Source of the DNA: Fidelibacterota bacterium UBA6630
GTDB lineage: Bacteria; Fidelibacterota; Marinisomatia; Marinisomatales; TCS55
DNA length: 56,292 nt
Direction: 5' to 3'
Assembly: GCA_002455835.1 (NCBI GenBank)
Contig: DKLW01000032.1
Coordinates: 1 to 56,292 of the forward strand
Positions within the stretch are counted from its first letter, which is position 1. Each line of letters opens with the position of its first letter. A program made the position numbers and the translations under genes. Shown piece by piece: positions 11,905-39,992 of the stretch. The notes beneath the pieces were generated by a model, which worked only from the letters and a program-made list of their open reading frames with translations, made no database searches and had not been told where the DNA came from.

Positions 11905-11915
11905 TCGGGAGCCAT

Positions 11916-12042: not shown

Positions 12043-12044
12043 AA

Positions 12045-12773
12045 TTAAAAATGCCAGACCAATTGAATCCGCGATTGATTGGCTAAGTGGTGTATGCTAA
12101 TTTTTCCACTCACATTATTTTGGTAGACTTGGGCAAACCCTTTTCCGATGGCCATACCCAAAGCTGCGCCAAATATGACATCGCTCACATAATGCTTATT
12201 ATCATGGATTCGACTTAATCCTGTAATGCACGCCAACGCATAAGCCGGCACACCCTTATTACTTCCATATATTTCCTGGGCGATAGTGGCAGTTAAAAAA
12301 CTATTTGATGTATGTCCGGATGGGAATGATCGTGTATTGGATTGGTCAGGCCGTTCCCTTCTCACTGCAAATTTCAATCCATACGTAATGATACCATTGG
12401 CAATAAAAGCATTCATTGCATATTCCAATTGGTTACTTTTCTCATCATTATTTAGAAAGGATCCCCACAATAGCAACTGACCTGTAATTCCCCAATAATC
12501 ACCAACCTTTGCCAATCCATTGGGCATCAGCCCATTGGATTGAACATTCGATTGGAAAGTTTGATCATATTGTGACGCAAGTCCACTACCAATTAATCCG
12601 CCGAGCAAAATCATCTGTAAATTAGGATTAGAAATCGTTTGAGACCATCCATCTGTAACAGAAGAAAATGAAATGGGCTGTCCATTAATTGACCCAATGA
12701 ATAAAAAATAGATCAATAGATGACTTCGGAATTTTAACCAATTATTCATAAAAGAAATTAAACGATCCAACAT
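12045..12773 (-). CDS. PAP2-family phosphatase (acid phosphatase / lipid or undecaprenyl-diphosphate phosphatase type)
   Basis: All three PAP2 motifs are present: KFAVRRERP, PSGHTS, SRIHDNKHYVSDV. Signal/anchor at the N-terminus. Confidence 0.85.
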   Translation of the reverse strand: MLDRLISFMNNWLKFRSHLLIYFLFIGSINGQPISFSSVTDGWSQTISNPNLQMILLGGLIGSGLASQYDQTFQSNVQSNGLMPNGLAKVGDYWGITGQLLLWGSFLNNDEKSNQLEYAMNAFIANGIITYGLKFAVRRERPDQSNTRSFPSGHTSNSFLTATIAQEIYGSNKGVPAYALACITGLSRIHDNKHYVSDVIFGAALGMAIGKGFAQVYQNNVSGKISIHHLANQSRIQLVWHF

Positions 12774-12792
12774 CTACTTTCACTTATGACTT

Positions 12793-12826
12793 ATATCGAA
12801 TTTTGAATAAGTTATTGATTCGATAT
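12793..12826. promoter_or_regulatory. 9-bp inverted repeat with 16-nt spacer in a divergent promoter region
   Basis: ATATCGAAT-n16-ATTCGATAT, between the PAP2 start (12773) and the lysA-like start (12841). Confidence 0.3.
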
Positions 12827-12840
12827 TTAAGGAAATTACT

Positions 12841-14091
12841 GTGAACATCCATCCCTTGCGAGAATTATTAAATGATGAACCGCTGATGGCCGAATTATCT
12901 GCCACCTATGGTACGCCATTATATATCTATGTGAAGGATCAAATTGGCCAAAATGTTAATCGTCTGAAGCATGCGCTAAAACCCAATTTTAACCAATCCC
13001 ATATTTGCTATGCGGTAAAAGCAAATAGCAATCCCCATCTTTTAAAATTAATGAAATCCTATCATCCCGAAATTGGAGGGGACTGCTCAAGCCCGGGCGA
13101 AATCTATGCGGCCGAATTGGCAGGGATTGATCCAAAGAAATGTTTATACACAGGAAATTATGAATCGGAGCCCGATTTAAGACTGGCTCTTAAAAAAGGA
13201 TGTTATATCAATCTTGATGATGCATCATCCTTGGATAGGTTGTTATCAATTGGCACACCGGAACGCATTTCGTTTCGACTCAATCCCGGATTTGGGAAAG
13301 GTACTTTTTCACAAATTACCACTGCAGGCGAAAATGCAAAGTTTGGTATCCCAGCAGAGAAAATTGTAAATGCTTATATAAATGCACAAAAAGCAGGTAT
13401 TCATAATTTTGGGTTACAATGTATGGCCGGCTCTGGAAATTTAGACGGGGACTATTTTATTGAATTGCTCACGGCCATCATTCATAATACCAAAAAGATT
13501 GAATCAAAATTGGGAATCCATTTTGAATTTGTCAGCATGGGTGGCGGTTGGGGCATTCCATACAAAGATGAAGAAACACCCCTTGATTTTGACTCCCTTT
13601 TCAAAAATTTGTCTGATGTTTTATATAGTCATTATGAGAATAAAGATGAAGCCCCTGCACTCTGGATTGAACCGGGCAAAAGCATCATTGGCAATACAGG
13701 CTTTATATTGACCACAGTTACGGGTTTGAAAAATAGTTATAAAAATTATGTGGGTCTTGATGCTGGCATGGAGACCCTCATGCGTCCTGCATTATATGGG
13801 GCATACCACCGCATGTATAAAATTGGAGAATCGGGTAAAAGCAATGGTGCGTATGATTTTACCGGGCCGATTTGCGAAAACACGGATAGAATCGCATTTG
13901 ACCGAGCTTTCCCAACCTTAGAAGAAGGTGATCTAATTGCCATTATGGATGCAGGCGCCTATGGATATGCTATGTCGCATAATTTCAATACCAGGCCACG
14001 GGCTGCCGAAGTACTGCTAGATGGACGAAACCATCAACTCATCCGACGGCGAGAAACCATAGAGGAAATCTTTACGGGATGTGATGTTTAG
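12841..14091 (+). CDS. lysA: Diaminopimelate decarboxylase-like, PLP fold-III decarboxylase
   Basis: YAVKANSNP (PLP Lys), GGGWGIPY, EPGKSIIGNTG, GPICENTD, DAGAYGYAMSHNFNTRPRAAEVLL. GTG start preceded by AAGGAA. Substrate inferred from motif pattern only. Confidence 0.7.
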   Translation: MNIHPLRELLNDEPLMAELSATYGTPLYIYVKDQIGQNVNRLKHALKPNFNQSHICYAVKANSNPHLLKLMKSYHPEIGGDCSSPGEIYAAELAGIDPKKCLYTGNYESEPDLRLALKKGCYINLDDASSLDRLLSIGTPERISFRLNPGFGKGTFSQITTAGENAKFGIPAEKIVNAYINAQKAGIHNFGLQCMAGSGNLDGDYFIELLTAIIHNTKKIESKLGIHFEFVSMGGGWGIPYKDEETPLDFDSLFKNLSDVLYSHYENKDEAPALWIEPGKSIIGNTGFILTTVTGLKNSYKNYVGLDAGMETLMRPALYGAYHRMYKIGESGKSNGAYDFTGPICENTDRIAFDRAFPTLEEGDLIAIMDAGAYGYAMSHNFNTRPRAAEVLLDGRNHQLIRRRETIEEIFTGCDV

Positions 14092-16525
14092 GCGGATTTT
14101 CATCTTAATCATTTTGGTTTCAATGATGTTTGGACAAGATGCTCAAAGGAAAGGCATTCATCAAATTGAGTTAGAACACCATAAAATCTATTATTTAGAG
14201 TCGACCCACAAACCGGGTTCCACCCCTCCTATCCCTCTGAAAAAACGAGTCGATGGACCATCAAAAATTGTATTTGGCTACCACCCTTATTGGTCCGGAT
14301 CAAAATGGCAAAACTATAATTATGACTTATTGACAACTATTGCATACTTCTCAGCAGAAGCCAATGCAAATGGTGACCTCACTGACCTCCATGGATGGCC
14401 TAAAACAGATCTCATAAATAAAGCACATGAGAATGGTGTGGAAGTTGTATTGGTTGTGACACTTTTCAACAAATCTGATTTAGAAACGCTTTTGAGCAAC
14501 AGCGATAATCGAAATCGGCTCATTAATAATTTGGTAACCCAAGTTGAGAATGGAAATGCAGATGGTGTAAACATTGATTTTGAAGCATTCCCCCCTTCAC
14601 AAAAATCCAATCTGGTCACTTTTGTTAAAGATTTGCGGAAAGCACTGCGGGACAAGATATCTCATGCAAAAGTTACCTTGGCTACACCGGCTGTGGATTG
14701 GAACAGCGCATGGGATTTTAATGCATTGGCCAAAGAAAGTGACGGCCTTTTCATCATGGGTTACGATTATCATTGGAAAGGCAGTTCAACCACTGGCCCT
14801 GTTTCTCCCCTTAAAGATGGATCTTACAATATCACCAAGACAGTGAACACGTATCTATCAGCAACAGGAAATAATGCAGAAAAAATCATCCTTGGCCTTC
14901 CTTATTATGGATATGAATGGACGGCTAATTCCGGTAATAAGGGCGCAAATACTACAGCTTCAGGAATAGCAGTTATATATGCCAATGCAGAAAATAATGC
15001 GAAATCTTATGGTAGAATATGGGATGATGCATCTGAAACGCCATGGTATAAATACGAAAATAATGGATGGTATCAAACTTGGTATGATGATAGTTTATCG
15101 TTGGCAAAAAAATATGACTTAGCTCTATCCAAAGATTTGGGTGGCGTGGGTATGTGGGCATTGGGATATGATGAAGGATCTCAAAAATTGTGGCAATCAT
15201 TAAAGGATAAGATGTCCGCGAAAACCGCACCTTCGACTCCTGTCAATCTCAATATCACTAATTTAGGGAATGGTGTGGTTACGATTGATTTTACTGGTTC
15301 ACCCGTCGCTACCGGTTATTCAGTCATCCGAGTTTATCCTCTTTCATCTAAAGAAGATGATTTAGGCTCTTTCACCAGCACCCCGATTCTGCTTTCAGGC
15401 CTTACTTTAGATTCAACATATTATTTTACAATCAAAGCATCAAATGATATTGGATCAAGTGGTGCAACTGAAGTATTGGGCGTAACGCCCTCATCCAACA
15501 TGCCGAAGATATTAATCATAAATGGATTTGACCGAGTCAGTGGTACAACAAATACCTATGATTTCATAAAGCAACATGGTGATGCCATTCACAAAAATGG
15601 ATATACATTTGATTCAGCGTCTAATGAAGCCATCATAAATGGGAGAGTAAAATTAACCGACTATGCAATCATAGATTGGATTTTAGGTGAAGAGGGGTCA
15701 TCAACTTCATCCTTCGATGAAACAGAACAATCCTTGTTAAAAGAATTTATGAAAAAAGGTGGCCGATTGTTTGTCTCCGGTTCTGAAATTGGATATGATC
15801 TTGTTGAACAAGGCAGTGTGAGCGATAACCTATTTTTTGAAAAATTCCTTAAAGCAGAGTATATATCAGATGCAGCAGCCGGAAAACAGGGCACCTATTC
15901 TGTGACTGGCGTATCCGGATCTATTTTCGAAAATATGACCATTACATTCGATGATGGAACACATGGAACCTACGATGTTGATTGGCCGGATGGCATTAAA
16001 CCGACAAGTGATGCTTCGATCCTTTTGCATTATGAAAACGCAGAATACGATCAAAAAGGTGGTGCGGGGATTGCCTATACCGGTGGGTTGGATGGCAGTC
16101 TTTTTACCGGTGGGTTGGTGTATTTATCCATTGGATTTGAAACAATCTATCCTGATAATAGTCGAAAAACCATCATGGGTAATATACTGAGTTATCTCGA
16201 TGGCACTACTGCTTCTGTAAGAGATGAAGAGAATATTATACCCAAAAGCCTAAATATCATCTCCCTTTACCCCAACCCTTCGAACCAATCTATTACCATT
16301 GAATTTCGGGTAGAACAATTTTCACCCATAGCATACCTTTCCATCACTGACCTTATGGGAAGAGAAGTATATAAAATGTCTGTTCAGCCCCTTGCGGCCA
16401 AGACACAAAAATTTTCGTGGCATGGTCGGTTGTATAATGGGCAGGATGCACCAACAGGTATTTATCTCGCCAAATTATCACAAGGAAGCCAACTCATCAC
16501 CAAAAAATTTACATTACTCAAATAA
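14084..16525 (+). CDS. Secreted GH18 glycoside hydrolase with FN3, a domain of unknown function and a T9SS C-terminal sorting domain
   Basis: Signal peptide. GH18 catalytic box ADGVNIDFE. FN3-like segment (PSTPVNLNITNLGNGVVTIDF...YYFTIKASN). About 230 aa unassigned (ILIINGFDRVSG...). Por/T9SS tail (LYPNPSNQSITIEF...GIYLAKL...KKFTLLK). ATG at 14084 (14081 is GTG) overlaps the lysA end. Confidence 0.8.
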   Translation: MFRRIFILIILVSMMFGQDAQRKGIHQIELEHHKIYYLESTHKPGSTPPIPLKKRVDGPSKIVFGYHPYWSGSKWQNYNYDLLTTIAYFSAEANANGDLTDLHGWPKTDLINKAHENGVEVVLVVTLFNKSDLETLLSNSDNRNRLINNLVTQVENGNADGVNIDFEAFPPSQKSNLVTFVKDLRKALRDKISHAKVTLATPAVDWNSAWDFNALAKESDGLFIMGYDYHWKGSSTTGPVSPLKDGSYNITKTVNTYLSATGNNAEKIILGLPYYGYEWTANSGNKGANTTASGIAVIYANAENNAKSYGRIWDDASETPWYKYENNGWYQTWYDDSLSLAKKYDLALSKDLGGVGMWALGYDEGSQKLWQSLKDKMSAKTAPSTPVNLNITNLGNGVVTIDFTGSPVATGYSVIRVYPLSSKEDDLGSFTSTPILLSGLTLDSTYYFTIKASNDIGSSGATEVLGVTPSSNMPKILIINGFDRVSGTTNTYDFIKQHGDAIHKNGYTFDSASNEAIINGRVKLTDYAIIDWILGEEGSSTSSFDETEQSLLKEFMKKGGRLFVSGSEIGYDLVEQGSVSDNLFFEKFLKAEYISDAAAGKQGTYSVTGVSGSIFENMTITFDDGTHGTYDVDWPDGIKPTSDASILLHYENAEYDQKGGAGIAYTGGLDGSLFTGGLVYLSIGFETIYPDNSRKTIMGNILSYLDGTTASVRDEENIIPKSLNIISLYPNPSNQSITIEFRVEQFSPIAYLSITDLMGREVYKMSVQPLAAKTQKFSWHGRLYNGQDAPTGIYLAKLSQGSQLITKKFTLLK

Positions 16526-17763
16526 TGAATCGATATTTCTTCTCCTTTATCATCCTCATAGCAGGATGTACAACTCCACCCCCTTCTATTTCTCCTTCTG
16601 AATTGAATACGATTCCATCTCCACCAAAAGGGAAAGTGGGCTTGGATGTTTTATTGGAAGAGCGTCAAGATTTAATCATCGGGAAAACTATCGGATTGGT
16701 TACCAATCATACGGGAGTAGATCAAAATGGGACGCCCAATTATGAAAGGATTCTTGAAATGAACGATGTGGATCTCAAAATTATATTTTCCCCGGAACAT
16801 GGGTTGTTTGGAGAATCAGCAGCGGGAGAAAAAGTATATTATAATGGCCAAATAAAGACCCTGCCAACCGTGGTAAGCCTGTATGGAAAAAATCGGAAGC
16901 CAACGCCAGAACAAATGAGGGGACTGGATGTGATTTTGTATGACATCCAAGATGTGGGTGCCCGATTTTATACATACATATCAACCATGGGTTTGGTGAT
17001 GGAGGCCGCAGCCGAATCGGGTGTGGAAGTTATTATTCTTGACCGTCCCAATCCGATCACAGGGACAAAAGTTGAAGGACCAATTTTGAATTTAACACAT
17101 CAATCTTTTGTGGGGAAATATCCCATCCCAATTCGTTATGGATTGACGGCAGGTGAATTGGCTCAAATGATAATTGGAGAAAAATGGATTAACAATATCC
17201 CGAGAATTGATGTTGTCCTTGTAGATGGTTGGAACAGAACACAATGGCAGGACGAAACCCATCTCCCATGGGTGAAACCCTCTCCCAACATTCCCGATAT
17301 TGAGACAGCCATCATTTATCCCGGCATGTGTTTATTAGAAGCTACAAATGTGAATGAAGGACGGGGAACCCAAAAACCATTCAAACGATTCGGTGCACCT
17401 TGGATTCTCAAAGAAATTTTGGCTGAAAGTCTAAACAATAATCATTTGCCCGGTGTTAGCTTTACGGCCGTTTCATTTATCCCTACAGATTTGGAGGGAA
17501 TGGCCAATAATCCAAAATATGAAAATCAAGTTTGCCATGGCATTGAGATTCAAATCACAGATCGGAATACTTATAATAGTGTCGCCACGGGGATTACTGT
17601 TATTGAGACTTTACAAAAATTATATCCAAATAAATTTGAGATTAAGACATCAGGAATGAATCGATTGTGGGGAATAAATGATCATGATTTTTCGAATTAC
17701 AATGAGGGTAAAGAATCACAATATTTCAAAAATAAGGCAGAAGGATATTATCTATATGAATAA
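16525..17763 (+). CDS. namZ: DUF1343 / NamZ-type exo-beta-N-acetylmuramidase (GH171), lipoprotein
   Basis: DUF1343 hallmarks GLVTNHTGVD, IFSPEHGLFGE, LYDIQDVGARFYTYISTM, ILDRPNP. Lipobox LIAGC. Start overlaps the GH18 stop (TAATG). Confidence 0.75.
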   Translation: MNRYFFSFIILIAGCTTPPPSISPSELNTIPSPPKGKVGLDVLLEERQDLIIGKTIGLVTNHTGVDQNGTPNYERILEMNDVDLKIIFSPEHGLFGESAAGEKVYYNGQIKTLPTVVSLYGKNRKPTPEQMRGLDVILYDIQDVGARFYTYISTMGLVMEAAAESGVEVIILDRPNPITGTKVEGPILNLTHQSFVGKYPIPIRYGLTAGELAQMIIGEKWINNIPRIDVVLVDGWNRTQWQDETHLPWVKPSPNIPDIETAIIYPGMCLLEATNVNEGRGTQKPFKRFGAPWILKEILAESLNNNHLPGVSFTAVSFIPTDLEGMANNPKYENQVCHGIEIQITDRNTYNSVATGITVIETLQKLYPNKFEIKTSGMNRLWGINDHDFSNYNEGKESQYFKNKAEGYYLYE

Positions 17764-19165
17764 TCTAAAGATTTTGATTTCAAAATTGGGATGCATATTT
17801 ATTCTATCCATTCATAGTTGTACACAATCTCCAATTATTTTTCATGGTAAAGGTGATAGAACCACAGAAAAACAAATCTATAATATTATTAATAAATCTG
17901 GCCTCTCGACCAATATAGGCGTTAAAGCTGTATCACTAAAATCTGGAAAGGTATTGGTGGACTTAAACAGCCATTCCCTTTTCAATCCTGCCAGCAATAA
18001 TAAAATATTTACAGCCATTGCTTCTCTTGCCCTTTTGGACTCGGGATATACATTTCATACAGAAGTTCGTCATGAGAATAATATACTATATTTGATCGGT
18101 GGTGGCGACCCGGATCTAACTTTATCATCATTGGATTCATTAGCAACAATCGTTGCAAAAGCAAATCTAACAGTGGATCAATTAATATTGGATGATACGC
18201 GTCATGATTCATTGACCTATGGTGAAGGATGGATGTGGGATGAAGGCGCCTGGTGGTATTCAGCTCCAATCAGTGCTTTATCTGTCAATGATAATTGTGT
18301 GAACTTTGTAATTCATCCCGGAATCGTAGGTGAACCGGCACGGGTTTACACCCATCCCCAATCTTCATATTATTCTATTCAAAACAAATCGATTACAGTA
18401 ACTGATTCCACAGGTTTTGAAAAATTAAAAATCGATCGAGATTGGCAAAACCGTACAAATCAATTCACCATTACTGGGAATATAATGGATACAACCTCAA
18501 CCGATACTATATTTAGAAATATAGAAGAACCAACACAATTTGTAGGCCATTTATTTAGAGAAATGATTTCAAAAAAGGGGATAGAAATTCAAACAATGCA
18601 TAAAAATAAAACGCCTGAATCAGCACAGCTTATCGCTACCCATACATCACGAACTCTACCAAATACAGTTAAGAATTTAATGGTTGAGAGCGATAATCTA
18701 ACCGCGGAATTATTAACCAAAACAATCGGTTTTGAATTCGAAGGTCTGCAAGGCACCTGGACAAATGGGCTACTACACATACGCGACTTTTTATATGACA
18801 GTGTTGGAATGGATACCGCCGAATTTTCAATAAGAGATGGGTCTGGTGTTTCACGATATAATTATTCTAGTCCAAATCATTTCATCCAACTATTGACCTG
18901 GGCATATAATCATCCTGAAATAAGGGATCAATTTTTGTTTACCCTTCCTCAGGGTGGTCTAAATGGGACACTTAAAGATCGAAATTTTCCAGATACTGTA
19001 CTTGCGAAAACGGGATCATTATCAGGGGCTTCCAATATATCCGGTTATATAATTAATAAAAATGATGTAATCGTATTCTCAATTTTAATGAATGGTTTTA
19101 AAGGATCTGCAAGTCCATATCGTTCTCTACAGGATAAGATTATCATTCAACTGAGTGATACATGA
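17756..19165 (+). CDS. dacB: D-alanyl-D-alanine carboxypeptidase/endopeptidase, PBP4 (S13) family, lipoprotein
   Basis: SxxK (ASNNKIFTA), DGSGVSRYN, KTG (AKTGSL). Lipobox SIHSC. ATG at 17756 gives an 8-nt overlap with namZ; the track's 17678 start would overlap by 86 nt. Confidence 0.8.
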   Translation: MNNLKILISKLGCIFILSIHSCTQSPIIFHGKGDRTTEKQIYNIINKSGLSTNIGVKAVSLKSGKVLVDLNSHSLFNPASNNKIFTAIASLALLDSGYTFHTEVRHENNILYLIGGGDPDLTLSSLDSLATIVAKANLTVDQLILDDTRHDSLTYGEGWMWDEGAWWYSAPISALSVNDNCVNFVIHPGIVGEPARVYTHPQSSYYSIQNKSITVTDSTGFEKLKIDRDWQNRTNQFTITGNIMDTTSTDTIFRNIEEPTQFVGHLFREMISKKGIEIQTMHKNKTPESAQLIATHTSRTLPNTVKNLMVESDNLTAELLTKTIGFEFEGLQGTWTNGLLHIRDFLYDSVGMDTAEFSIRDGSGVSRYNYSSPNHFIQLLTWAYNHPEIRDQFLFTLPQGGLNGTLKDRNFPDTVLAKTGSLSGASNISGYIINKNDVIVFSILMNGFKGSASPYRSLQDKIIIQLSDT

Positions 19166-20079
19166 AAATAACTTCCTTCATTGGGCTCACATTATTCTTA
19201 TTGATTTCAGGATGTACCCAATCAGCATTACAAGATCCCTATGTGGTTGTATTGGGAATTGCGCAGGATGCCGGTGTACCCCAAGCAGGATGTATGAAAG
19301 AGTGTTGTATTGGTCGCTGGAATAATCCGAGCAATCAATTGATGGTTACATCACTTGGGATTGTCGATCCGCACTCCAAAGAAACATGGATGGTTGAAGC
19401 CACACCCGATTTCACTAATCAATTGAAAATACTCACTGATAATAACCAAGATAAATTAAAGGGTATTTTTCTCACACATGCCCATATTGGCCATTATACG
19501 GGACTAATTCATTTGGGAAGAGAGGCCATGGGCACGCAAAAAGTAAATGTATATGCAATGCCCAAGATGGCTAAGTTTTTAAGGTCAAATGGACCATGGA
19601 GTCAATTAGTAGACTTAGAGAATATTCAGATTAATAAATTAAAAAATGAAAAAACCCTAGAACTCAATAACCGAATTTCAATAACACCATTTATAGTTCC
19701 TCATCGTGATGAGTTTTCTGAAACAGTTGGATATAAGATTGAAGGGCCATCCAAGTCTCTCATATTTATCCCTGATATTGATAAATGGGAGAAGTGGGAG
19801 GAGGATATTAAAAAAGTGGCTTCAGAAAATGAATACACTTTGATTGATGGGTCATTTTTTGAAAATGGTGAAATTCCCGATCGTGATATGTCAGAAATTC
19901 CCCACCCGTTTATTGTTGAATCCATAGAAGTCCTTAGAGATGTGAAAGATAAATCTGGTATTCACTTTATTCATTTTAATCACACAAATCCAGTTTTAAA
20001 TCAAGACTCTAGCCCAAGAAAAGATGTTTTAAATGCTGGTTTTAATATTGCAGGCTCCGGTCAAAAAATGAGTATATAA
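19162..20079 (+). CDS. MBL-fold metallo-hydrolase, PqqB-like, lipoprotein
   Basis: LTHAHIGHYTG metal motif, later HRDE and FNHTNP. Lipobox LISGC. ATGA overlap with dacB. Confidence 0.65.
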   Translation: MKITSFIGLTLFLLISGCTQSALQDPYVVVLGIAQDAGVPQAGCMKECCIGRWNNPSNQLMVTSLGIVDPHSKETWMVEATPDFTNQLKILTDNNQDKLKGIFLTHAHIGHYTGLIHLGREAMGTQKVNVYAMPKMAKFLRSNGPWSQLVDLENIQINKLKNEKTLELNNRISITPFIVPHRDEFSETVGYKIEGPSKSLIFIPDIDKWEKWEEDIKKVASENEYTLIDGSFFENGEIPDRDMSEIPHPFIVESIEVLRDVKDKSGIHFIHFNHTNPVLNQDSSPRKDVLNAGFNIAGSGQKMSI

Positions 20080-20118
20080 AATAGTCTAAAATATTTAATC
20101 TGGCCTTCCATGGATTTT

Positions 20119-21519: not shown

Positions 21520-21523
21520 GGGG

Positions 21524-22381: not shown

Positions 22382-22391
22382 TCTTCCTTAA

Positions 22392-25304: not shown

Positions 25305-25361
25305 AACATAAAAATTAACTGAACTTCCCCCATAAATCTTTAACTTTTCTTTCTCAAAATC

Positions 25362-26414
25362 ATGCGATCTACAAGTAAAGAAATCAAATCAATGATCGGT
25401 CAAATGATCATGACCGGATTCCGCGGTACATCTGGAGAGGATGCAGCATCTTTTTTCCAATCTCTAGATGGACTTACAGTAGGCGGTGTCATCCTTTATG
25501 ATCAAAATGTAACAACAAACCCTCCCACCCTTCATAACATTCGATCTCCTGAACAGGTGCAATCTCTGAATGCTGCGCTTCAAACTTTCAGTGAGATTCC
25601 TCTATTTATCGTTGTAGATCAAGAAGGAGGGCAAGTGAATCGATTAAAAAAGGAATATGGTTTTAATGATTCACAAAGTTGGGAAAATATTGGTATTGAA
25701 GAAAGTGAATCCAATACTATTGATCATGCTAAGAAAATTGCATTCACGCTCAAAACCCACGGATTTAATATGAATTTTGCTCCTGTTCTGGACCTCCTTA
25801 TAAATTCTGAGAATGTAATTGTTCAAAAAGGGCGATGTTTTTCCCATGATCCTGAAATCATTGCCCGACATGCTGAATTATTCATCCATGCTCATTTAAA
25901 ACATAATATTATTCCCGTATGTAAACATTTCCCGGGGCAAGGCAGTGCCGCAAGCGACACCCATGATGGATTTGTGAATGTCTCAGATTCTTGGAAAGAA
26001 AGTGAACTTTTTCCCTATGAGTATTTGATTGATAATCATTCTATACCGGCCGTTATGACCTCTCACTTATTTCATCAAGCACTAGATTCTAAGTACCCGG
26101 CAACACTTTCTTCCAAAATATTGAAACAGATGCTTCGTAAACAAATGGGGTTTAATGGTGTCATTATTAGCGATGATCCTCAAATGGGAGCCATTACAGA
26201 TCATTATGAACTCAAAACCGTAATTAATTTAATGGTTAATGCTGGGGTTGATATTTTTTGTTTTGGGAATAACTTGGTTTATGATCCGGACATTGTAAAA
26301 AAGGTATACGCAATCATTGAAAAATTATTAAAAGAGGGGTTAATTACCGCCCAACAAATTGAGACCTCCTACAATCGTATTTTGAGATTAAAAGAATTGG
26401 TTGGTTTATCATGA
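25362..26414 (+). CDS. nagZ: GH3 beta-N-acetylhexosaminidase, cytoplasmic NagZ type
   Basis: No signal peptide. VDQEGGQVNRL, KHFPGQGSAASDTHDG, GVIISDD. Confidence 0.8.
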   Translation: MRSTSKEIKSMIGQMIMTGFRGTSGEDAASFFQSLDGLTVGGVILYDQNVTTNPPTLHNIRSPEQVQSLNAALQTFSEIPLFIVVDQEGGQVNRLKKEYGFNDSQSWENIGIEESESNTIDHAKKIAFTLKTHGFNMNFAPVLDLLINSENVIVQKGRCFSHDPEIIARHAELFIHAHLKHNIIPVCKHFPGQGSAASDTHDGFVNVSDSWKESELFPYEYLIDNHSIPAVMTSHLFHQALDSKYPATLSSKILKQMLRKQMGFNGVIISDDPQMGAITDHYELKTVINLMVNAGVDIFCFGNNLVYDPDIVKKVYAIIEKLLKEGLITAQQIETSYNRILRLKELVGLS

Positions 26415-27433
26415 AGATAATTGGGTTAGATGGGGGTGCCACTAAAGTTTCAGGCGGGATCGTAGAACAGGTGAATGAAAGTACGTTTAGGATCATTGAT
26501 CCTACTATCGATATACAATATTCAGATCATCCAAATTTCAACCTGGATTTTTCTTCACTACCCTTAGACCAACAAACGGGTTCAGAAATATCCAAAGCAG
26601 AATGCCGACAGGGAAAAGTAATTATAGACTGTGCTTCTAAAGTGATCAAATCCTTGACTGGCGACGGTCCATTTCATGTAGCAATAGCCATGCCTGGAAT
26701 TAAAACTGAAAATGGTCGTGGTATTGCTGCTATGGCCAATGGGCCCCGGATACCAGATTTCTCTGATCAACTCGAAGAGGCTATATCTCTTGGGCTCCCC
26801 ATTCAAAGGTTGGAGAGTGATGCGGACATGTGTGCCTGGGGTGAAGAATATGGGGAAGAAGGTGCATTTCGATCCGTTAACAATGCTTATTATCTTGGAG
26901 GTGGGACAGGTACAGCCGACGGACTCAAGCTTAATGGTACGTTGCTTCCTTTCGATGAAGCCTCAAATTGGATGGGTAAATCAATAAAATTGAAAATGAT
27001 CAATGGGAAATCATTGGAAACTTATACATCCATGTCGGGGATTCATGCCTTGCGGGAATTCATAACAGATGATGAAATCGGTGCGGTATTGGGTCAATTA
27101 ATATTTGAGCGAATATCAACCATTTATTCCGGTTGGGGTGGTTTGTTCATTATAGATCAAAATCTCAAGTCAGACCATCCATACCTTGGTACATTATTAG
27201 ATCGAATTGTTATTGGTCAGCGGTTATCTCAATTTTTACAATCGGATGAAGGTAAACCCACTTACAAGGCCGTAATGAAAACATTAACTAATCAATGTGC
27301 TGATGCTCATTCTGCAATTTCAGATCATTTCTTAGTTAATGGAGAGTTCGATTCAAGTCGAATTATTCTTTCAGATTTAAGGGCAGCGCCGATTATCGGT
27401 CTTGGGGCAAAAGTTTGGATGTCCCAATGCTGA
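26411..27433 (+). CDS. BadF/BadG/BcrA/BcrD-type ATPase, GlcNAc/MurNAc kinase-like
   Basis: N-terminal phosphate-1 motif IIGLDGGATKV, DADMCAWGE, LGGGTGTADG. ATGA overlap with nagZ. Confidence 0.65.
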   Translation: MKIIGLDGGATKVSGGIVEQVNESTFRIIDPTIDIQYSDHPNFNLDFSSLPLDQQTGSEISKAECRQGKVIIDCASKVIKSLTGDGPFHVAIAMPGIKTENGRGIAAMANGPRIPDFSDQLEEAISLGLPIQRLESDADMCAWGEEYGEEGAFRSVNNAYYLGGGTGTADGLKLNGTLLPFDEASNWMGKSIKLKMINGKSLETYTSMSGIHALREFITDDEIGAVLGQLIFERISTIYSGWGGLFIIDQNLKSDHPYLGTLLDRIVIGQRLSQFLQSDEGKPTYKAVMKTLTNQCADAHSAISDHFLVNGEFDSSRIILSDLRAAPIIGLGAKVWMSQC

Positions 27434-28683
27434 TCCCCGGTTCTATTCCCAATAAAGAACCACTAATTCGTGTGGGCCTCATTTTACCTGAGGACAAACT
27501 GAAATCAATTGCCGTCTCCTTTTCTGACAGCCAATTCTATGAGATTGAAACGGAAAACCGATTACATCCGTCCTGCAAAAATGCAGATCACACTACCATA
27601 AATTATGATAATGGGAAACTAGTTATTCCCGAATTAGGAATTATTGATACTTCCCTAAAAATCATTCCATCTATCCCGGATGGAAGCCCATCACTAATGC
27701 TTAATGGTATCCCTGTTGGCCGAGGCTTTCATTGGGAGAAACAAATTCGCGCATCCTATTGGGGCACTATGGAATTTTCAATTCAAGATGGAAAAATGAT
27801 GGCCGTTAATGAACTGCCTTTGGAAGCGTATCTGAAATGCGTGGCCACATCAGAAATGAGCGCCCTATGTCCTCCCGAATTTTTAAAAGCCCAAACCATT
27901 GTGGCCCGGTCATGGCTTTTGGCCAATATTGAGCAGAAACACCGTCACCTTGGATTTGACATTTGCAATGATGATTGCTGCCAGCGTTATCAAGGCATGA
28001 CCCACTGTACCGATGCGTCTATTCAAAGTGCCAATGCGACTTTTGGTGAAGTGATTATGTTTGACGATCGCATTTGCGATGCACGCTACTCCAAATCTTG
28101 TGGTGGCATTTCAGAAAATTTTGAACACGTATGGGATGGGGAACCCATCCCATATTTGGTATCAATTGTAGACGAAGATGAAAATGGTGTGCCTTTTTGC
28201 AGTCCTGAGATTGTACCGGAAACATCACTTAAAACCTATATCGGAGATGTAGATAAAAAAGGGAAATATTATCGCTGGACGTATCAAGCCACCCAAGATG
28301 AACTGATTCAATCATTACAATATAAGCATAATATCAATGCAGCCAAGATTCAGGATTTAACCCCCATCAAAATGGGGGTGTCCGGTCGAATTACTGACCT
28401 ATTGATTGAATATGAAGACAACCAAGGAAATAATCAGAAAATAAAAATCCATTCTGAATATGAGATCAGGAATATCATGTCTCCTTCATTTTTATTTAGC
28501 TCAGCATTTACAATTGAAAAAACGGATGATGGAGATTTTCTACTCCATGGAAATGGCTGGGGTCACGGTGTAGGCCTGTGTCAAATTGGTGCATTGGGCA
28601 TGGCATTATTCGGGAATACATCAGAAATGATATTGAATCATTATTATCCAAATTCAAGACTTAGACATCTGTATAATAAATGA
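27415..28683 (+). CDS. SpoIID/LytB domain protein without a signal peptide
   Basis: SpoIID-family boxes LEAYLKCVATSEM, AQTIVARSW, CNDDCCQRYQG, RYSKSCGG, GHGVGLCQIGA. An alternative ATG is at 27427. Confidence 0.75.
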   Translation: MDVPMLIPGSIPNKEPLIRVGLILPEDKLKSIAVSFSDSQFYEIETENRLHPSCKNADHTTINYDNGKLVIPELGIIDTSLKIIPSIPDGSPSLMLNGIPVGRGFHWEKQIRASYWGTMEFSIQDGKMMAVNELPLEAYLKCVATSEMSALCPPEFLKAQTIVARSWLLANIEQKHRHLGFDICNDDCCQRYQGMTHCTDASIQSANATFGEVIMFDDRICDARYSKSCGGISENFEHVWDGEPIPYLVSIVDEDENGVPFCSPEIVPETSLKTYIGDVDKKGKYYRWTYQATQDELIQSLQYKHNINAAKIQDLTPIKMGVSGRITDLLIEYEDNQGNNQKIKIHSEYEIRNIMSPSFLFSSAFTIEKTDDGDFLLHGNGWGHGVGLCQIGALGMALFGNTSEMILNHYYPNSRLRHLYNK

Positions 28684-29963
28684 GTGATCAATCAACTAAG
28701 AGACTTTGGCAATGGGTCCCATCCCTATATTATGCAGAGGGGCTCCCTTATGCATTCGTTATGATTGTTTCTACAATTATGTATAAAAATTTGGGTATAT
28801 CCAACACGGATATAGCACTCTATACGAGTTGGCTTTATTTACCTTGGGTCATCAAACCTCTGTGGAGTCCTTTGGTGGATATCCTTAAAACTAAACGATT
28901 CTGGATTATTATTATGCAGTTGGTCATTGGTGCTGGATTGGCAGGGATTGCCCTAACACTACCCACCGATAATGTATTTAAATTTACATTGGCATTTTTC
29001 TGGCTCATTGCATTTAGTTCTGCCACCCATGATATTGCTGCTGATGGTTTCTATATGATCGCACTTCCATCCCATGATCAGGCATGGTGGGTCGGGATTC
29101 GAAATTCATTTTATAGATTGGCAATAATCACCGGACAGGGATTTTTGGTGATGCTGGCAGGGGTTTTAAATGATTGGACGGGCAATATGGCCACTGCATG
29201 GTCCATGTTGTTTGGATGTCTATCAATAATATTTCTCTTATTAGGGCTATATCATAAAATTCAACTGCCATTTCCTAAATCTGATTCTTCCGATAAGAAT
29301 GCAAATGTAGGGTCCGTCATGAAAAATTTCTTTCATGTATTCATCTCATTTTTCCAAAAACCAAAAATCGTTCTTATCATTAGCTTTATTTTATTATACC
29401 GATTCGGAGAAGCGCAATTAGTCAAGATTGCACCGCTATTTATGTTGGATGATTTTGCTGCAGGTGGATTGGGATTAACTAATGTTCAATTGGGATTTAT
29501 TCAGGGAACGATGGGGATTATCATGTTAACTCTAGGTGGCATTCTAGGAGGACTTCTTGTAGCAAAACATGGTTTAAAATCTTGGATACTATGGATGGCA
29601 TTGGCCATGAAGCTACCTGATATTGTATATGTTATCATGGCCTATACCCAAATGGATAATATTTCATTCATTACCGCTTTTGTAGCTATTGAACAATTTG
29701 GATATGGTTTTGGATTTACTGCCTATATGCTTTTTATGATGATGATTTCTGATGGAGAGCACAAAACGGCTCACTATGCCTTATGCACTGGATTTATGGC
29801 ATTGGGTATGATGCTTCCCGGCATGTTTAGCGGTGCGTTGCAGGAAACCATTGGATATCAATCCTTTTTTATTTGGGTAATGGTGGCTACAATCCCGGGA
29901 CTCATTTTGATTAAATTTTTGGATATCGACCCCAACTATGGAATAAACAAGGATTCTGGATGA
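28680..29963 (+). CDS. ampG: AmpG-family MFS muropeptide permease
   Basis: 12-14 TM MFS protein. N-terminus WVPSLYYAEGLPYAFV and ATHDIAADGF are typical of AmpG-type permeases. ATGA overlap with the upstream gene. Confidence 0.75.
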   Translation: MSDQSTKRLWQWVPSLYYAEGLPYAFVMIVSTIMYKNLGISNTDIALYTSWLYLPWVIKPLWSPLVDILKTKRFWIIIMQLVIGAGLAGIALTLPTDNVFKFTLAFFWLIAFSSATHDIAADGFYMIALPSHDQAWWVGIRNSFYRLAIITGQGFLVMLAGVLNDWTGNMATAWSMLFGCLSIIFLLLGLYHKIQLPFPKSDSSDKNANVGSVMKNFFHVFISFFQKPKIVLIISFILLYRFGEAQLVKIAPLFMLDDFAAGGLGLTNVQLGFIQGTMGIIMLTLGGILGGLLVAKHGLKSWILWMALAMKLPDIVYVIMAYTQMDNISFITAFVAIEQFGYGFGFTAYMLFMMMISDGEHKTAHYALCTGFMALGMMLPGMFSGALQETIGYQSFFIWVMVATIPGLILIKFLDIDPNYGINKDSG

Positions 29964-31084
29964 CACAATCAAATGAACGTCTCATTGCTCTAGATACATT
30001 TCGTGGTGCCACCATGGCATTGATGGTCTTGGTAAACACACCTGGTACTTGGGCTCATGTGTACGGACCCCTTCGCCACGCGAAATGGCACGGATGCACA
30101 CTCACGGATCTGGTATTTCCATTTTTCCTTTTTATTGTGGGCATTTCCATGCGCTACTCATTTGAGAAATATGAATTCTGCAAATGGGGACCCCTCTTCA
30201 AAAAAGTGGTTTTTCGTACCATCACCATTTTTACCATTGGGTTATTTTTGAATGCATTTCCCTTCATCCGACAAGACTGGGACTGGTCTCAATTCAGAAT
30301 TATGGGCGTCCTCCAACGGATCGCATTGGCCTACATCCTGGCCAGTATGATTGTTGTCCGGGCAGACATTAAAGGTATCGTCCAAATTTCTATGGGATTA
30401 TTAATTGGCTATTGGCTACTACTTATGGGCCATGGCTGGATGACTGGCGTGGATCCCTATGGTTTGGAGACCAATCTTCAAGGCGTAATTGATTCCATTA
30501 TTTTAGGCAAGGATCATTTGTATAGAGGCATGGGAATTCCTTTTGATCCCGAAGGATTGTTAAGCACTATTACTTCTATAGCCACCATTCTTCTCGGGTT
30601 TCTAGTTGGTGCCATGATTAAAACAACAAAAGACCATCAAGATAACTGCCAGCGGATGGCTGTACTTGGGGCCCTGCTCATCATATCGGGATGGTTATGG
30701 GGTTTTGTCATGCCAATCAATAAACAGCTTTGGACCAGCTCTTATGTTTTATTCACGGGGGGTATCGGTACCCTTCTTTTGGCGGGCATGATTTGGCTCA
30801 TTGATGTGAAAAAGAAGAATGGTTGGACAAAGCCTTTTGTTATTTTCGGCGCCAACGCCATATTCCTCTATGCGGCTTCAGGTATCTGGACCAAGATTAT
30901 GCTGAGAATACAATTTGAATTCGATGGCAAAATCATTTCAGGATATGGTTATTTATATAAGACAATATTTCAACCCATGGCAGGAGATATAAACGGCTCT
31001 CTCTTATTTGCTTTATTTCATGTATTTATGTTTTGGCTTATCTTGGCTTGGATGTATAAAAAGAAAGTTTTTTTAAAAATTTAA
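29960..31084 (+). CDS. Heparan-alpha-glucosaminide N-acetyltransferase (HGSNAT)-like / DUF1624-DUF5009 integral membrane acyltransferase
   Basis: N-terminal RLIALDTFRGATMALMVLVN...HAKWHGCTLTDLVFPFFLFIVG pattern and about 10 TM segments. ATGA overlap with ampG. Confidence 0.6.
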   Translation: MTQSNERLIALDTFRGATMALMVLVNTPGTWAHVYGPLRHAKWHGCTLTDLVFPFFLFIVGISMRYSFEKYEFCKWGPLFKKVVFRTITIFTIGLFLNAFPFIRQDWDWSQFRIMGVLQRIALAYILASMIVVRADIKGIVQISMGLLIGYWLLLMGHGWMTGVDPYGLETNLQGVIDSIILGKDHLYRGMGIPFDPEGLLSTITSIATILLGFLVGAMIKTTKDHQDNCQRMAVLGALLIISGWLWGFVMPINKQLWTSSYVLFTGGIGTLLLAGMIWLIDVKKKNGWTKPFVIFGANAIFLYAASGIWTKIMLRIQFEFDGKIISGYGYLYKTIFQPMAGDINGSLLFALFHVFMFWLILAWMYKKKVFLKI

Positions 31085-34392: not shown

Positions 34393-34402
34393 AATCAGAA
34401 AA

Positions 34403-34431
34403 ATGGGGCACCAATAATATGGATGCCCCAT
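34403..34431 (-). promoter_or_regulatory. Intercistronic stem-loop between the substrate-binding protein gene and livG
   Basis: ATGGGGCACCA-ataata-TGGATGCCCCAT (11 bp with one bulged A), located in the 57-nt gap after the SBP stop. Confidence 0.5.
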
Positions 34432-34449
34432 AATTATTTTACTTCAAGT

Positions 34450-35619: not shown

Positions 35620-35634
35620 TCTAGATACTCCTTT

Positions 35635-39961: not shown

Positions 39962-39992
39962 AGGTTTTCGAAGGTTTAAAGTTTTTTACTTT

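What the first reader, a model, noticed from the sequence alone, without database searches (positions are those of the whole stretch)
12045..31084. Large two-strand peptidoglycan/muropeptide scavenging supercluster covering secretion, periplasmic trimming, import and cytoplasmic processing
Within about 19 kb there are many cell-wall-related genes. They are a PAP2 phosphatase, a DAP-decarboxylase-like enzyme, a T9SS-secreted GH18, a NamZ (DUF1343) lipoprotein, a PBP4 lipoprotein, a PqqB-like MBL lipoprotein and an SSS permease. There are also a DUF1460 amidase-like lipoprotein, a NagZ/AmiE-like fusion lipoprotein, a cytoplasmic NagZ, a BadF-type sugar kinase, a SpoIID/LytB protein, AmpG and an HGSNAT-like acyltransferase. 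The plus-strand genes are chained by overlaps (14084-14091, TAATG at 16525, 8 nt at 17756, and ATGA at 19162, 26411, 28680 and 29960). The B. subtilis exo-lytic trio (NagZ, AmiE, NamZ) and the Gram-negative AmpG/NagZ route therefore occur side by side. The secreted T9SS enzyme suggests feeding on exogenous cell-wall debris rather than only self-recycling. No MurQ etherase, AnmK or NagA/NagB is in the window, so the downstream route is open. The SSS permease could play the non-PTS MurNAc uptake role attributed to MurT in Tannerella forsythia; that homology must be checked.
Basis: partly seen in the sequence, partly recalled or inferred. Interest (0 to 1): 0.6.

Follow-up and report, generated by a model that had tools for sequence, protein, structure and literature searches.

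The report
Marinimicrobia cell-wall scavenging gene island
An uncultured ocean bacterium (Marinimicrobia/SAR406) keeps about 14 genes for cutting up, importing and re-using bacterial cell wall in one conserved island; because its lineage seems unable to make the wall amino acid diaminopimelate, the island probably feeds on other bacteria's walls.

Summary
Window 12841-31084 carries three tightly packed gene blocks. Profile, PDB and fold searches confirm them as lysA, a T9SS GH18, NamZ, PBP4, a PqqB-like MBL, an SSS permease, AmiA/DUF1460, a NagZ::AmiE-like fusion, cytoplasmic NagZ, a sugar kinase, a signal-less SpoIID/LytB, AmpG and an HGSNAT/NagX-like acetyltransferase.

Corrections:
- The kinase is ROK-like, not BadF-type.
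- PAP2 is only a loose neighbour.
- lysA is a true DAP decarboxylase and the only copy found.

The host is a Marinimicrobia MAG. The whole layout, including lysA-GH18-namZ, recurs in relatives.

In this genome and four near-complete relatives:
- MurQ, MurA/MurB (own genome only) and a DNPR (meso-DAP-type) MurE were found.
- DapB, DapF, AnmK and NagA were not found.

So the island probably scavenges foreign wall, with LysA making lysine from salvaged DAP.

The kind is known from Tannerella forsythia, Bacillus subtilis and Fidelibacter multiformis. This scan had already noted related Bacteroidales clusters on other DNA. New here are the marine layout, the lysA/DAP link and a ROK-like kinase paired with cytoplasmic SpoIID across three named phyla. 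SSS-MurT orthology remains unproven.

The parts
12045..12773 (-). PAP2-family phosphatase. A loose neighbour, not a core member of the island.
   Evidence: Pfam PAP2, 62.8 bits. Kept divergent from lysA in 2 of 4 relatives.
12841..14091 (+). LysA, diaminopimelate decarboxylase. First gene of block A.
   Evidence: TIGR01048, 365 bits, above the cut-off. Only lysA match in the genome. The order lysA-GH18-namZ-PBP4 is kept in 5 of 5 relatives.
14084..16525 (+). Secreted GH18 glycosidase with a T9SS C-terminal sorting domain.
Evidence: Pfam GH18 and Por_Secre_tail; TIGR04183 above cut-off. Signal peptide present. Best solved relatives are 4wiw, a chitinase, and YaaH/SleL/YdhD. Orthologues of 58-78% identity lie next to namZ in 5 of 5 relatives.
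16525..17763 (+). NamZ (GH171) exo-beta-N-acetylmuramidase, a lipoprotein.
   Evidence: NamZ_N 263 bits and NamZ_C 136 bits. Lipobox LIAGC.
17756..19165 (+). PBP4/DacB-type DD-carboxypeptidase/endopeptidase, a lipoprotein.
   Evidence: Peptidase_S13 277 bits; TIGR00666 226 bits, above cut-off. Lipobox when read from the M27 start.
19162..20079 (+). PqqB-like metallo-beta-lactamase-fold lipoprotein. Role unknown.
   Evidence: Lactamase_B_2; PqqB model 110 bits, below cut-off. Best PDB match is PqqB, E=2e-12. The motif reads HAHIGH, with no Asp. Syntenic in 12 loci.
20119..21519 (-). Sodium:solute symporter, a candidate MurNAc (MurT-like) importer.
   Evidence: Pfam SSF. Best solved relatives carry carboxylates: SMVT, SMCT1 and SiaT. 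24% identity, E=9e-33, to the SSS in the murT position of L150.
21524..22381 (-). AmiA-like (DUF1460) MurNAc-L-Ala amidase-like lipoprotein.
   Evidence: PF07313, 72 bits. Lipobox.
22392..25304 (-). Lipoprotein that fuses a NagZ-type GH3 domain to an AmiE/PBP4B-like serine hydrolase domain.
   Evidence: GH3 273 bits plus Beta-lactamase 187 bits. Motifs KHFPGHGDTETDSH, SITK, YSD and HTG present. In Bacteroidales locus L152 the two parts are separate adjacent genes.
25305..25361 (.). 57-bp divergent intergenic region between blocks B and C, strongly conserved.
   Evidence: Near-identical in 16 relatives and recognisable in L079, although the flanking proteins are only 50-70% identical. It holds two TTAAC-containing boxes. 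Reading these as promoters or an operator is inference.
25362..26414 (+). Cytoplasmic NagZ (GH3 beta-N-acetylglucosaminidase).
   Evidence: GH3 194 bits; the NagZ model is the best NCBIfam match. No signal peptide; motif KHFPGQGSAASDTH.
26411..27433 (+). ROK-like ASKHA sugar kinase of an unnamed family.
   Evidence: No Pfam match above threshold; ROK E=0.004. Model pLDDT 93. Top fold matches are ROK gluco-, GlcNAc- and ManNAc-kinases. Invariant DxGxxK, SDAD and GGGTG motifs.
27427..28683 (+). Signal-less (cytoplasmic) SpoIID/LytB-domain protein.
   Evidence: TIGR02669, 178 bits. The Glu of the ..SEMS motif aligns with the EM motif of SpoIID. Model pLDDT 90, best fold matches SpoIID 5i1t and 4rwr. 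All homologues printed (about 60) lack a signal peptide; most, and all close relatives, start within about 10 nt of the kinase stop.
28680..29963 (+). AmpG-family MFS permease.
   Evidence: TIGR00901 is the best match at 187 bits, below the cut-off. Sits directly after SpoIID, as in the T. forsythia operon (PMC5388701).
29960..31084 (+). HGSNAT/NagX-like transmembrane acetyltransferase.
   Evidence: NF046061, 182 bits, below cut-off. Human HGSNAT E=8e-25, with an H-A-x-W-x-G stretch aligned. Syntenic in 32 loci.
31081..37595 (-). Adjacent FadD-like AMP-ligase plus a Liv-type ABC importer (LivF, LivG, LivK, LivM, LivH). Link to the island unresolved.
   Evidence: Pfam and NCBIfam matches. Kept next to the NagX-like gene in at least 11 loci, including distant ones.

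Best explanation
Window 12841-31084 is a three-operon island for acquiring and processing peptidoglycan fragments, in a marine Marinimicrobia (Fidelibacterota/SAR406) bacterium.

Shown (gene content and layout):
- Block A (+ strand): lysA, T9SS-secreted GH18, NamZ, PBP4, PqqB-like MBL.
- Block B (- strand): NagZ::AmiE-like fusion, AmiA/DUF1460, SSS permease.
- Block C (+ strand): NagZ, ROK-like kinase, signal-less SpoIID/LytB, AmpG, HGSNAT/NagX-like acetyltransferase.

Inferred mechanism:
1. The secreted GH18 and the lipoprotein enzymes dismantle wall fragments outside the cytoplasm. PBP4 opens cross-links. The two amidases strip stem peptides. NagZ and NamZ remove GlcNAc and MurNAc from the ends.
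2. The NagX-like enzyme may re-acetylate de-N-acetylated sugars.
3. The SSS permease (MurNAc or another carboxylate) and AmpG (disaccharides) import the products.
4. In the cytoplasm, NagZ splits the disaccharide and the ROK-like kinase phosphorylates GlcNAc and/or MurNAc. MurQ, encoded elsewhere, converts MurNAc-6P to GlcNAc-6P plus D-lactate.
5. The step catalysed by cytoplasmic SpoIID is unknown.
6. LysA turns salvaged meso-DAP into lysine.

The lineage has a DAP-type MurE but no detectable DapB or DapF. Net growth should therefore need foreign DAP. That makes the island a scavenging system rather than only a self-recycling one.
For: - Family assignments.
- Export signals are present only on the proposed extracytoplasmic enzymes.
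- Genes within each block overlap or nearly touch.
- The order NamZ-PBP4-MBL / SSS-AmiA-fusion / NagZ-kinase-SpoIID-AmpG-NagX recurs in Marinimicrobia loci down to about 41% kinase identity.
- lysA-GH18-namZ-PBP4 is kept in 5 of 5 relatives.
- The host is Marinimicrobia, by the source names of homologues and loci.
- MurQ is above cut-off in this genome and four relatives.
- The window's lysA is the only copy found.
- DapB and DapF gave no match in this genome or in four relatives of 96-99% completeness. DapB sequences from the same phylum also find nothing here. The same model does find DapB in 25 of 101 sampled genomes of the phylum, none of them in the own class.
- MurE is present with the DNPR motif in all five genomes.
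- Literature: T. forsythia grows on peptidoglycan through lytB-ampG-namZ1-murTKQ (PMC5388701, PMC7670621, bioRxiv 10.1101/2021.12.02.470905). The only cultured member of this phylum lives on exogenous muropeptides and cannot make DAP or lysine (PMC11652737).
Against: - No enzyme here has been assayed and there is no expression evidence.
- MurA and MurB are present, so the sugar part of the wall is made de novo. Ordinary self-recycling would use many of the same genes.
- Two DHDPS-family genes score below the DapA cut-off. The genome is only 80% complete. An unknown DAP route cannot be excluded.
- Reading DNPR as DAP specificity rests on knowledge of other MurE enzymes.
- No route from stem peptide to free DAP was identified. 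No LdcA was found in this genome and no Mpl in any of the five.
- No outer-membrane importer is assigned.
- NagA is missing, so the fate of GlcNAc-6P is open.
- GH18 could be a chitinase.
Confidence: 0.7

Rival explanations
1. Housekeeping self-recycling only. The island merely recovers the cell's own turnover products, as the AmpG/NagZ route does in E. coli.
For: AmpG, cytoplasmic NagZ, PBP4 and MurQ are classic recycling parts. MurA, MurB and MurE are present, so the cell builds its own wall.
Against: - A T9SS-secreted GH18 is conserved in the operon.
- The exo-lytic lipoprotein set (NamZ, NagZ::AmiE-like, AmiA) matches the scavenging sets of B. subtilis and T. forsythia.
- No DapB or DapF was found although MurE is DAP-type. 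Recycling alone cannot supply the net DAP needed for growth.
- AnmK and Mpl of the E. coli route were not found in any of the five genomes, and LdcA was not found in this genome.
Confidence: 0.15
2. Chitin or GlcNAc-oligomer utilisation. GH18 is a chitinase. NagZ, the ROK-like (NagK-like) kinase and the NagX-like enzyme form a GlcNAc pathway. The wall-specific genes are merely neighbours.
For: GH18 also matches chitinases. The NagX model comes from a Shewanella GlcNAc/chitin locus. ROK-type GlcNAc kinases are among the fold matches.
Against: - NamZ, AmiA, PBP4, SpoIID/LytB, AmpG and LysA are specific to peptidoglycan, and they are translationally coupled to the GH18, NagZ and kinase genes.
- The top solved GH18 relatives include YaaH/SleL/YdhD.
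- No NagA was found in five genomes.
Confidence: 0.08
3. The cytoplasmic SpoIID protein and its adjacent kinase form a two-step, AnmK-independent route. SpoIID opens or transfers the 1,6-anhydro ring of imported anhydro-MurNAc, and the kinase then makes MurNAc-6P for MurQ.
For: - The pair is adjacent in 65 of 80 loci from Marinimicrobia, Calditrichota, Bacteroidota and unnamed MAGs, mostly with a few bases between or overlapping stop and start.
- In Bacteroidales the same SpoIID family sits beside MurK and MurQ.
- In 81 Bacteroidales genomes its presence is complementary to AnmK: both 4, SpoIID only 16, AnmK only 56, neither 5.
- This genome and four relatives have the pair and MurQ but no AnmK.
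- T. forsythia uses GlcNAc-anhMurNAc without AnmK (PMC7670621).
Against: - In the Marinimicrobia sample, 59 of 73 genomes with this SpoIID also have AnmK, sometimes within 10 kb of it.
- The Bacteroidales pattern may reflect clade structure, because related genomes are not independent samples.
- SpoIID enzymes are known to form anhydro ends, not to open them.
Confidence: 0.15

Closest known systems
Tannerella forsythia muropeptide/MurNAc salvage operon Tanf_08345-08385 (xanthan-lyase-like, gtf, gtf, lytB, ampG, namZ1, murT, murK, murQ)
   Same: - SpoIID/LytB lies directly before AmpG.
- NamZ is present.
- An SSS-superfamily permease is present.
- A sugar kinase and MurQ are in the pathway.
- The system is used to feed on other bacteria's wall (PMC5388701, PMC7670621, PMC5790795).
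   Different: - Different phylum.
- Three blocks on two strands rather than one operon.
- A ROK-like kinase takes the place of BadF-type MurK.
- NagZ sits where other lineages carry a GT2 gene.
- murQ is unlinked.
- Added parts: lysA, T9SS GH18, PBP4, MBL, AmiA, the NagZ::AmiE-like fusion and the NagX-like gene.
- The host keeps MurA and MurB.
Bacillus subtilis exo-lytic trio NagZ (YbbD), AmiE (YbbE) and NamZ (YbbC), with murQRP
   Same: An exported GH3 NagZ, a beta-lactamase-fold amidase-like domain and NamZ are present together.
   Different: - NagZ and the AmiE-like domain are fused into one lipoprotein.
- There is no MurP PTS transporter and no MurR regulator.
- The host has a Gram-negative envelope, with AmpG and T9SS secretion.
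Fidelibacter multiformis IA91 (the cultured Marine Group A isolate), which depends on exogenous muropeptides
   Same: - Same phylum.
- Has muropeptide recycling genes.
- Unable to make DAP: reported for IA91 (PMC11652737) and inferred here from the missing DapB and DapF.
   Different: - IA91 lacks peptidoglycan synthesis altogether and is an anaerobe from a deep subsurface aquifer.
- This marine genome keeps MurA, MurB, MurC and MurE.
- I could not read the primary paper (Katayama 2024, Nat Microbiol; not held), so overlap with its phylum-wide gene survey is unknown.
Escherichia coli AmpG-NagZ-AmpD-LdcA-AnmK-MurQ-NagA-Mpl recycling pathway
   Same: An AmpG-family permease, cytoplasmic NagZ and MurQ are present. 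E. coli NagK, which phosphorylates the released GlcNAc, is also a ROK-family kinase.
   Different: - AnmK, NagA and Mpl were not found in any of the five genomes, and LdcA was not found in this genome.
- The amidases are periplasmic lipoproteins rather than a cytoplasmic AmpD.

Membership tests
T. forsythia-type ampG/namZ muropeptide salvage operon | SpoIID/LytB gene immediately upstream of ampG | tested here: met
   27427-28683 is followed by 28680-29963 with an ATGA overlap.
T. forsythia-type ampG/namZ muropeptide salvage operon | NamZ (GH171) in the locus | tested here: met
   NamZ_N and NamZ_C at 16525-17763.
T. forsythia-type ampG/namZ muropeptide salvage operon | MurT transporter (sodium symporter superfamily) | tested here: inconclusive
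   The window's SSS is 24% identical (E=9e-33) to an SSS in the murT position of L150. Among the 30 best Bacteroidales homologues whose loci were fetched, only three lie beside murQ or namZ. The T. forsythia MurT sequence itself was not available.
T. forsythia-type ampG/namZ muropeptide salvage operon | BadF-type MurK kinase and MurQ inside the operon | tested here: not met
   The kinase has no BadF match and no MurK match in the PDB. murQ lies on another contig.
T. forsythia-type ampG/namZ muropeptide salvage operon | Host is a MurNAc auxotroph (no MurA or MurB) | tested here: not met
   murA and murB are above cut-off in this genome.
B. subtilis NagZ-AmiE-NamZ exo-lytic system | Exported GH3 NagZ, beta-lactamase-fold AmiE and NamZ together | tested here: met
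   Fusion lipoprotein with GH3 and Beta-lactamase domains and intact motifs, plus a NamZ lipoprotein. Amidase activity cannot be tested with these tools.
B. subtilis NagZ-AmiE-NamZ exo-lytic system | MurP PTS transporter, MurQ and MurR in the same operon | tested here: not met
   None of these is among the genes annotated in the island.
E. coli-type cytoplasmic muropeptide recycling | AmpG permease | tested here: inconclusive
   AmpG models are the best matches, but the score of 187 bits is below the 350-bit cut-off. The genomic context agrees with AmpG.
E. coli-type cytoplasmic muropeptide recycling | AnmK, LdcA, Mpl and NagA | tested here: not met
   AnmK was found in none of five genomes. 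LdcA was not found in this genome. The Mpl model found only a MurC-like match. NagA was found in none of five genomes.
IA91-type muropeptide dependence (Fidelibacterota) | Loss of peptidoglycan precursor synthesis genes | tested here: not met
   MurA, MurB, a MurC-like ligase and MurE are present.
IA91-type muropeptide dependence (Fidelibacterota) | No DAP synthesis, with muropeptide recycling genes kept | tested here: met
   No DapB or DapF in five genomes. DapA-like matches are below cut-off only. The island itself supplies the recycling genes.
ROK sugar kinases (PF00480) | Profile match above threshold, and ROK fold with ATP and catalytic motifs | tested here: inconclusive
   Pfam ROK scores 17 bits against a 22.9-bit cut-off. 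The fold and the DxGxxK, SDAD and GGGTG motifs are ROK-like. The ROK zinc motif was not examined.
SpoIID/LytB lytic transglycosylases | SpoIID domain with the catalytic Glu, and extracytoplasmic location | tested here: not met
   The domain, the fold and a Glu aligned with the SpoIID EM motif are present. No signal peptide is present in any of about 60 homologues, so the location feature fails.

The most novel reading that the evidence does not exclude
Marinimicrobia of this marine order cannot make meso-diaminopimelate. They must harvest it from other bacteria's walls through this island, for their own DAP-type wall and, through the operon-leading LysA, for lysine. They would then depend on foreign wall for this one component, while still making the sugar backbone themselves. 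In the same island, the cytoplasmic SpoIID and ROK-like kinase pair would be an undescribed step in handling imported wall sugars. I give that second part, taken alone, about 0.15-0.2.
Probability: 0.4. Interest if true: 0.75.

Novelty: new variant of a known kind. Interest (0 to 1): 0.55.

Why it matters
Marinimicrobia/SAR406 are widespread ocean bacteria, and only one member of the phylum has been cultured. If this lineage needs other bacteria's cell wall for DAP and lysine, three things follow:
- Peptidoglycan debris becomes a required resource for it, not just a food.
- That requirement could explain why these bacteria resist cultivation.
- It suggests a concrete medium supplement: muropeptides or DAP.

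The island also gives a defined set of enzymes to assay. The conserved pair of cytoplasmic SpoIID and kinase is among them; its chemistry is unknown in Tannerella and Bacteroides as well.

Tried and rejected
- **BadF/MurK identity of the kinase: rejected.** It has no PF01869 match and no MurK match in the PDB, and its fold is ROK-type.
- **Complex prediction of kinase with SpoIID.** The job gave no verdict. It counts neither for nor against binding.
- **Sigma-70 promoter and terminator scans of 11900-31500.** Counts were no higher than in shuffled sequence.
- **Strict complementarity of cytoplasmic SpoIID and AnmK.** It holds in the Bacteroidales sample but fails in Marinimicrobia, where 59 of 73 genomes with this SpoIID also have AnmK.
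- **SSS as a clear MurT orthologue.** Among the 30 best Bacteroidales homologues whose loci were fetched, only three lie beside murQ or namZ. Only some second-rank copies lie within a few kb of murQ or SpoIID.
- **Mpl-based reuse of tripeptide.** Only a MurC-like match was found.
- **A shared operator between the lysA upstream region and the 57-bp divergent region.** None was seen by eye.
- **The primary paper, Katayama 2024 (Nat Microbiol).** It is not held.
- **PAP2 as a core member.** It is kept next to lysA in only 2 of 4 relatives.
- **Identity of Tanf_08355.** I first guessed that this T. forsythia 'gtf' gene is the ROK-like kinase. Earlier scan notes say that position holds a HIT-like DUF4922 gene in Bacteroidales. 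I could not check either reading.

Full report
**Observation.** Start-codon inspection reproduces every stated junction:
- lysA/GH18: 8-nt overlap.
- GH18/namZ: 1-nt overlap (TAATG).
- namZ/PBP4: 8-nt overlap, with the PBP4 start at 17756.
- PBP4/MBL, nagZ/kinase, SpoIID/ampG and ampG/nagX: ATGA overlaps.
- kinase/SpoIID: 7-nt overlap, with the SpoIID start at 27427.

The minus-strand genes are 4 and 10 nt apart. The layout is three blocks:
- Block A (+), 12841-20079.
- Block B (-), 20119-25304.
- Block C (+), 25362-31084.

Blocks B and C diverge from a 57-bp spacer.

**Family calls.** Pfam and NCBIfam confirm most of them:
- PAP2.
- LysA, 365 bits, above the equivalog cut-off.
- GH18 with a T9SS sorting domain.
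- NamZ_N and NamZ_C.
- Peptidase S13/PBP4, above cut-off.
- A PqqB-like MBL. Its best PDB match is PqqB.
- An SSF permease.
- AmiA-like/DUF1460.
- A 970-aa GH3 plus beta-lactamase-fold fusion. The motifs KHFPGHGDTETDSH, SITK, YSD and HTG are present.
- A 350-aa NagZ.
- SpoIID/LytB.
- An AmpG-family MFS permease. AmpG is the best match, but the score is below the cut-off.
- A NagX-like protein that also matches human HGSNAT at E=8e-25.

Signal peptides or lipoboxes occur on GH18, NamZ, PBP4, MBL, AmiA and the fusion. They are absent from NagZ, the kinase and SpoIID.

**The kinase is miscalled.** It has no BadF match and no match to the solved MurK structures, only a sub-threshold ROK match. A confident model (pLDDT 93) superposes best on ROK-type gluco-, GlcNAc- and ManNAc-kinases. 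The family keeps the DxGxxK, SDAD and GGGTG motifs.

**Host and conservation.**
- Homologues of the kinase carry Marinimicrobia, Fidelibacterota and Caldithrix names. The 80 loci fetched from species genomes are mostly Marinimicrobia, with Calditrichota and Bacteroidota as well. The genome is a 1.77-Mb, 80%-complete MAG.
- tblastn with the window's proteins shows the order NamZ-PBP4-MBL / SSS-AmiA-fusion / NagZ-kinase-SpoIID-AmpG-NagX in Marinimicrobia loci whose kinase is only 41-84% identical.
- GH18 orthologues (58-78% identity, full length) lie directly upstream of namZ, and lysA directly upstream of GH18, in all five relatives examined.
- PAP2 is kept in only 2 of 4 relatives.
- An AMP-ligase plus Liv-type ABC importer to the right is also syntenic in at least 11 loci. 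I cannot tie it to wall metabolism.
- The 57-bp spacer between blocks B and C is nearly invariant in relatives whose proteins have diverged to 50-70% identity. That points to shared regulatory signals.

**A conserved core beyond the phylum.**
- The kinase and the SpoIID gene are adjacent in 65 of 80 loci.
- None of about 60 SpoIID homologues has a signal peptide. Most begin ML.PG.IP..EP.IRVGIILPED, and most, including all close relatives, start within about 10 nt of the kinase stop.
- The Glu of ..SEMS aligns with the SpoIID EM motif. The model (pLDDT 90) matches the SpoIID structures 5i1t and 4rwr. An N-terminal beta-rich domain of about 120 residues has no structural match.
- In Bacteroidota, Calditrichota and deep Marinimicrobia, a 510-aa GT2 protein replaces NagZ upstream of the kinase. 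Downstream come AmpG (about 555 aa, or a 607-aa SSF) and then NamZ or NagX.
- One Bacteroidales locus (L061) adds murQ, an AmiE-like protein, a NagX-like gene and an AmgK-like kinase to the same cluster.
- Another (L150) reads SSS-SpoIID-MurK-MurQ. Its kinase matches the solved T. forsythia MurK and K1058 structures.
- This is the architecture published for T. forsythia: gtf, gtf, lytB, ampG, namZ1, murT, murK, murQ (PMC5388701; bioRxiv 10.1101/2021.12.02.470905).
- Earlier notes of this scan describe Bacteroidales versions with GT2, a HIT-like DUF4922 protein and a signal-less SpoIID.

**Rest of the genome.** Results for this genome (G000) and four relatives of 96-99% completeness:

| Gene | Result |
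|---|---|
| MurQ | Present in all five. Not in a wall cluster here. Flanked by an AgcS amino-acid carrier in four of the five and by a PgmG/archaeal-GlmM-like mutase in three |
| AnmK | Not found in any of the five |
| NagA | Not found in any of the five |
| LdcA | Not found in G000 (relatives not searched) |
| Mpl | Only a MurC-like match in each of the five |
| MurA, MurB | Present in G000 (relatives not searched) |
| LysA | The window's copy is the only match in G000 |
| DapA | Only two DHDPS-family matches, both below cut-off, in G000 |
| DapB, DapF | No match in any of the five |
| MurE | Present in all five, with the DNPR motif |

- DapB proteins taken from two other Marinimicrobia find nothing in this genome (best E=1.6).
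- The DapB model does detect the gene in 25 of 101 sampled genomes of the phylum, none of them in the own class.
- From established knowledge of E. coli MurE, the DNPR motif marks enzymes that add meso-DAP.
- The inference is a DAP-type wall without DAP synthesis. That cannot be sustained by recycling alone, and it gives a reason for lysA to head an operon of wall-degrading enzymes.
- It also fits the only cultured member of the phylum. That isolate lives on exogenous muropeptides and cannot make MurNAc, D-Ala, D-Glu, DAP or lysine. Its authors trace this reliance to the ancestor of the phylum (PMC11652737, citing Katayama 2024, which I could not read).

**GH18.** Its best solved relatives are 4wiw, a chitinase, and the spore-cortex enzymes YaaH/SleL and YdhD. 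Classical chitinases score somewhat lower. Together with the conserved coupling to lysA and namZ, this favours a peptidoglycan substrate. Chitin is not excluded.

**SSS permease.** It groups with SLC5-type carriers of carboxylate solutes: SMVT, SMCT1 and the sialic-acid carrier SiaT. It is 24% identical over its full length to the SSS in the murT position of L150. Nearly every sampled Bacteroidales genome has homologues of 26-32% identity. Of the 30 best whose loci were fetched, only three lie beside murQ or namZ. The MurT analogy is reasonable but not established.

**Does SpoIID plus kinase replace AnmK?**
- In 81 Bacteroidales genomes the counts are: both 4, SpoIID only 16, AnmK only 56, neither 5. 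The Fisher p-value is 2e-9, but it is inflated because the genomes are related.
- In 101 Marinimicrobia genomes the counts are 59, 14, 20 and 8, which shows no association. AnmK sometimes lies within 10 kb of SpoIID in these genomes.
- The own genus, family and two sister families have the pair without AnmK.

I therefore keep this idea only as a minority rival. The simplest role for the kinase is phosphorylation of the GlcNAc and/or MurNAc that NagZ releases. The complex-prediction job gave no verdict.

**Verdict.**
- The kind of system is known from T. forsythia, B. subtilis and F. multiformis, and related clusters were already noted in this scan on other DNA.
- What is new is the marine Marinimicrobia layout: lysA and a T9SS GH18 inside the operon, the NagZ::AmiE-like fusion, a ROK-like kinase paired with a cytoplasmic SpoIID, and the absence of AnmK and NagA.
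- Also new is the inferred dependence on foreign DAP in a lineage that still builds its own glycan.

Noticed in passing
window 25305-25361: The 57-bp spacer between the divergent blocks B and C is almost invariant (AAAAATTAAC.GAACTTCCCC.ATAA.TCTTTAACTTTT) across 16 relatives and recognisable in L079, although the flanking proteins are only 50-70% identical. The two TTAAC boxes resemble Bacteroidetes-type -7 promoter elements facing opposite ways.
   Followed up: partly
G000 contig C10 (L001:1-3639); L168-L171: murQ sits in a conserved group with an AgcS-type Na+/alanine carrier (four of five genomes) and a PgmG/archaeal-GlmM-like phosphohexomutase (three of five). No NagA was found in any of the five genomes. 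This hints that GlcNAc-6P may go straight to GlcNAc-1P and UDP-GlcNAc.
   Followed up: partly
L113, L117, L121, L130 (Bacteroidales); window 31081-32910: In four Bacteroidales genomes the best homologue of the window's SSS permease lies next to a homologue (32-35% identity) of the FadD-like AMP-ligase. In the window that ligase flanks the other end of the island. This is a possible functional link between the two genes.
   Followed up: no
window 37763-42179: Two tandem DUF5916 proteins of about 730 aa lie just beyond the Liv-type ABC genes. They might be outer-membrane uptake components. No outer-membrane importer for wall fragments has been assigned in the island.
   Followed up: no
L040:12542-14212, L061:12578-14245, L052:12412-14235: Outside the close relatives, the transporter after SpoIID is either a longer AmpG (about 555 aa) or, in deep Marinimicrobia lineages, a 607-aa SSF-family symporter in the same position.
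   Followed up: partly
phylum sample, family f3 (G109, G120, G128, G156, G164, G172): Six genomes of about 1 Mb and 96-99% completeness, in the same order as this MAG, have neither the cytoplasmic SpoIID nor AnmK nor DapB. This looks like an even more reduced lineage.
   Followed up: no
window 19162-20079: The PqqB-like MBL lipoprotein has HAHIGH in place of the usual HxHxDH metal motif, plus an N-terminal Cys cluster (GCMKECC). Its substrate in the wall-degrading operon is unknown.
   Followed up: partly
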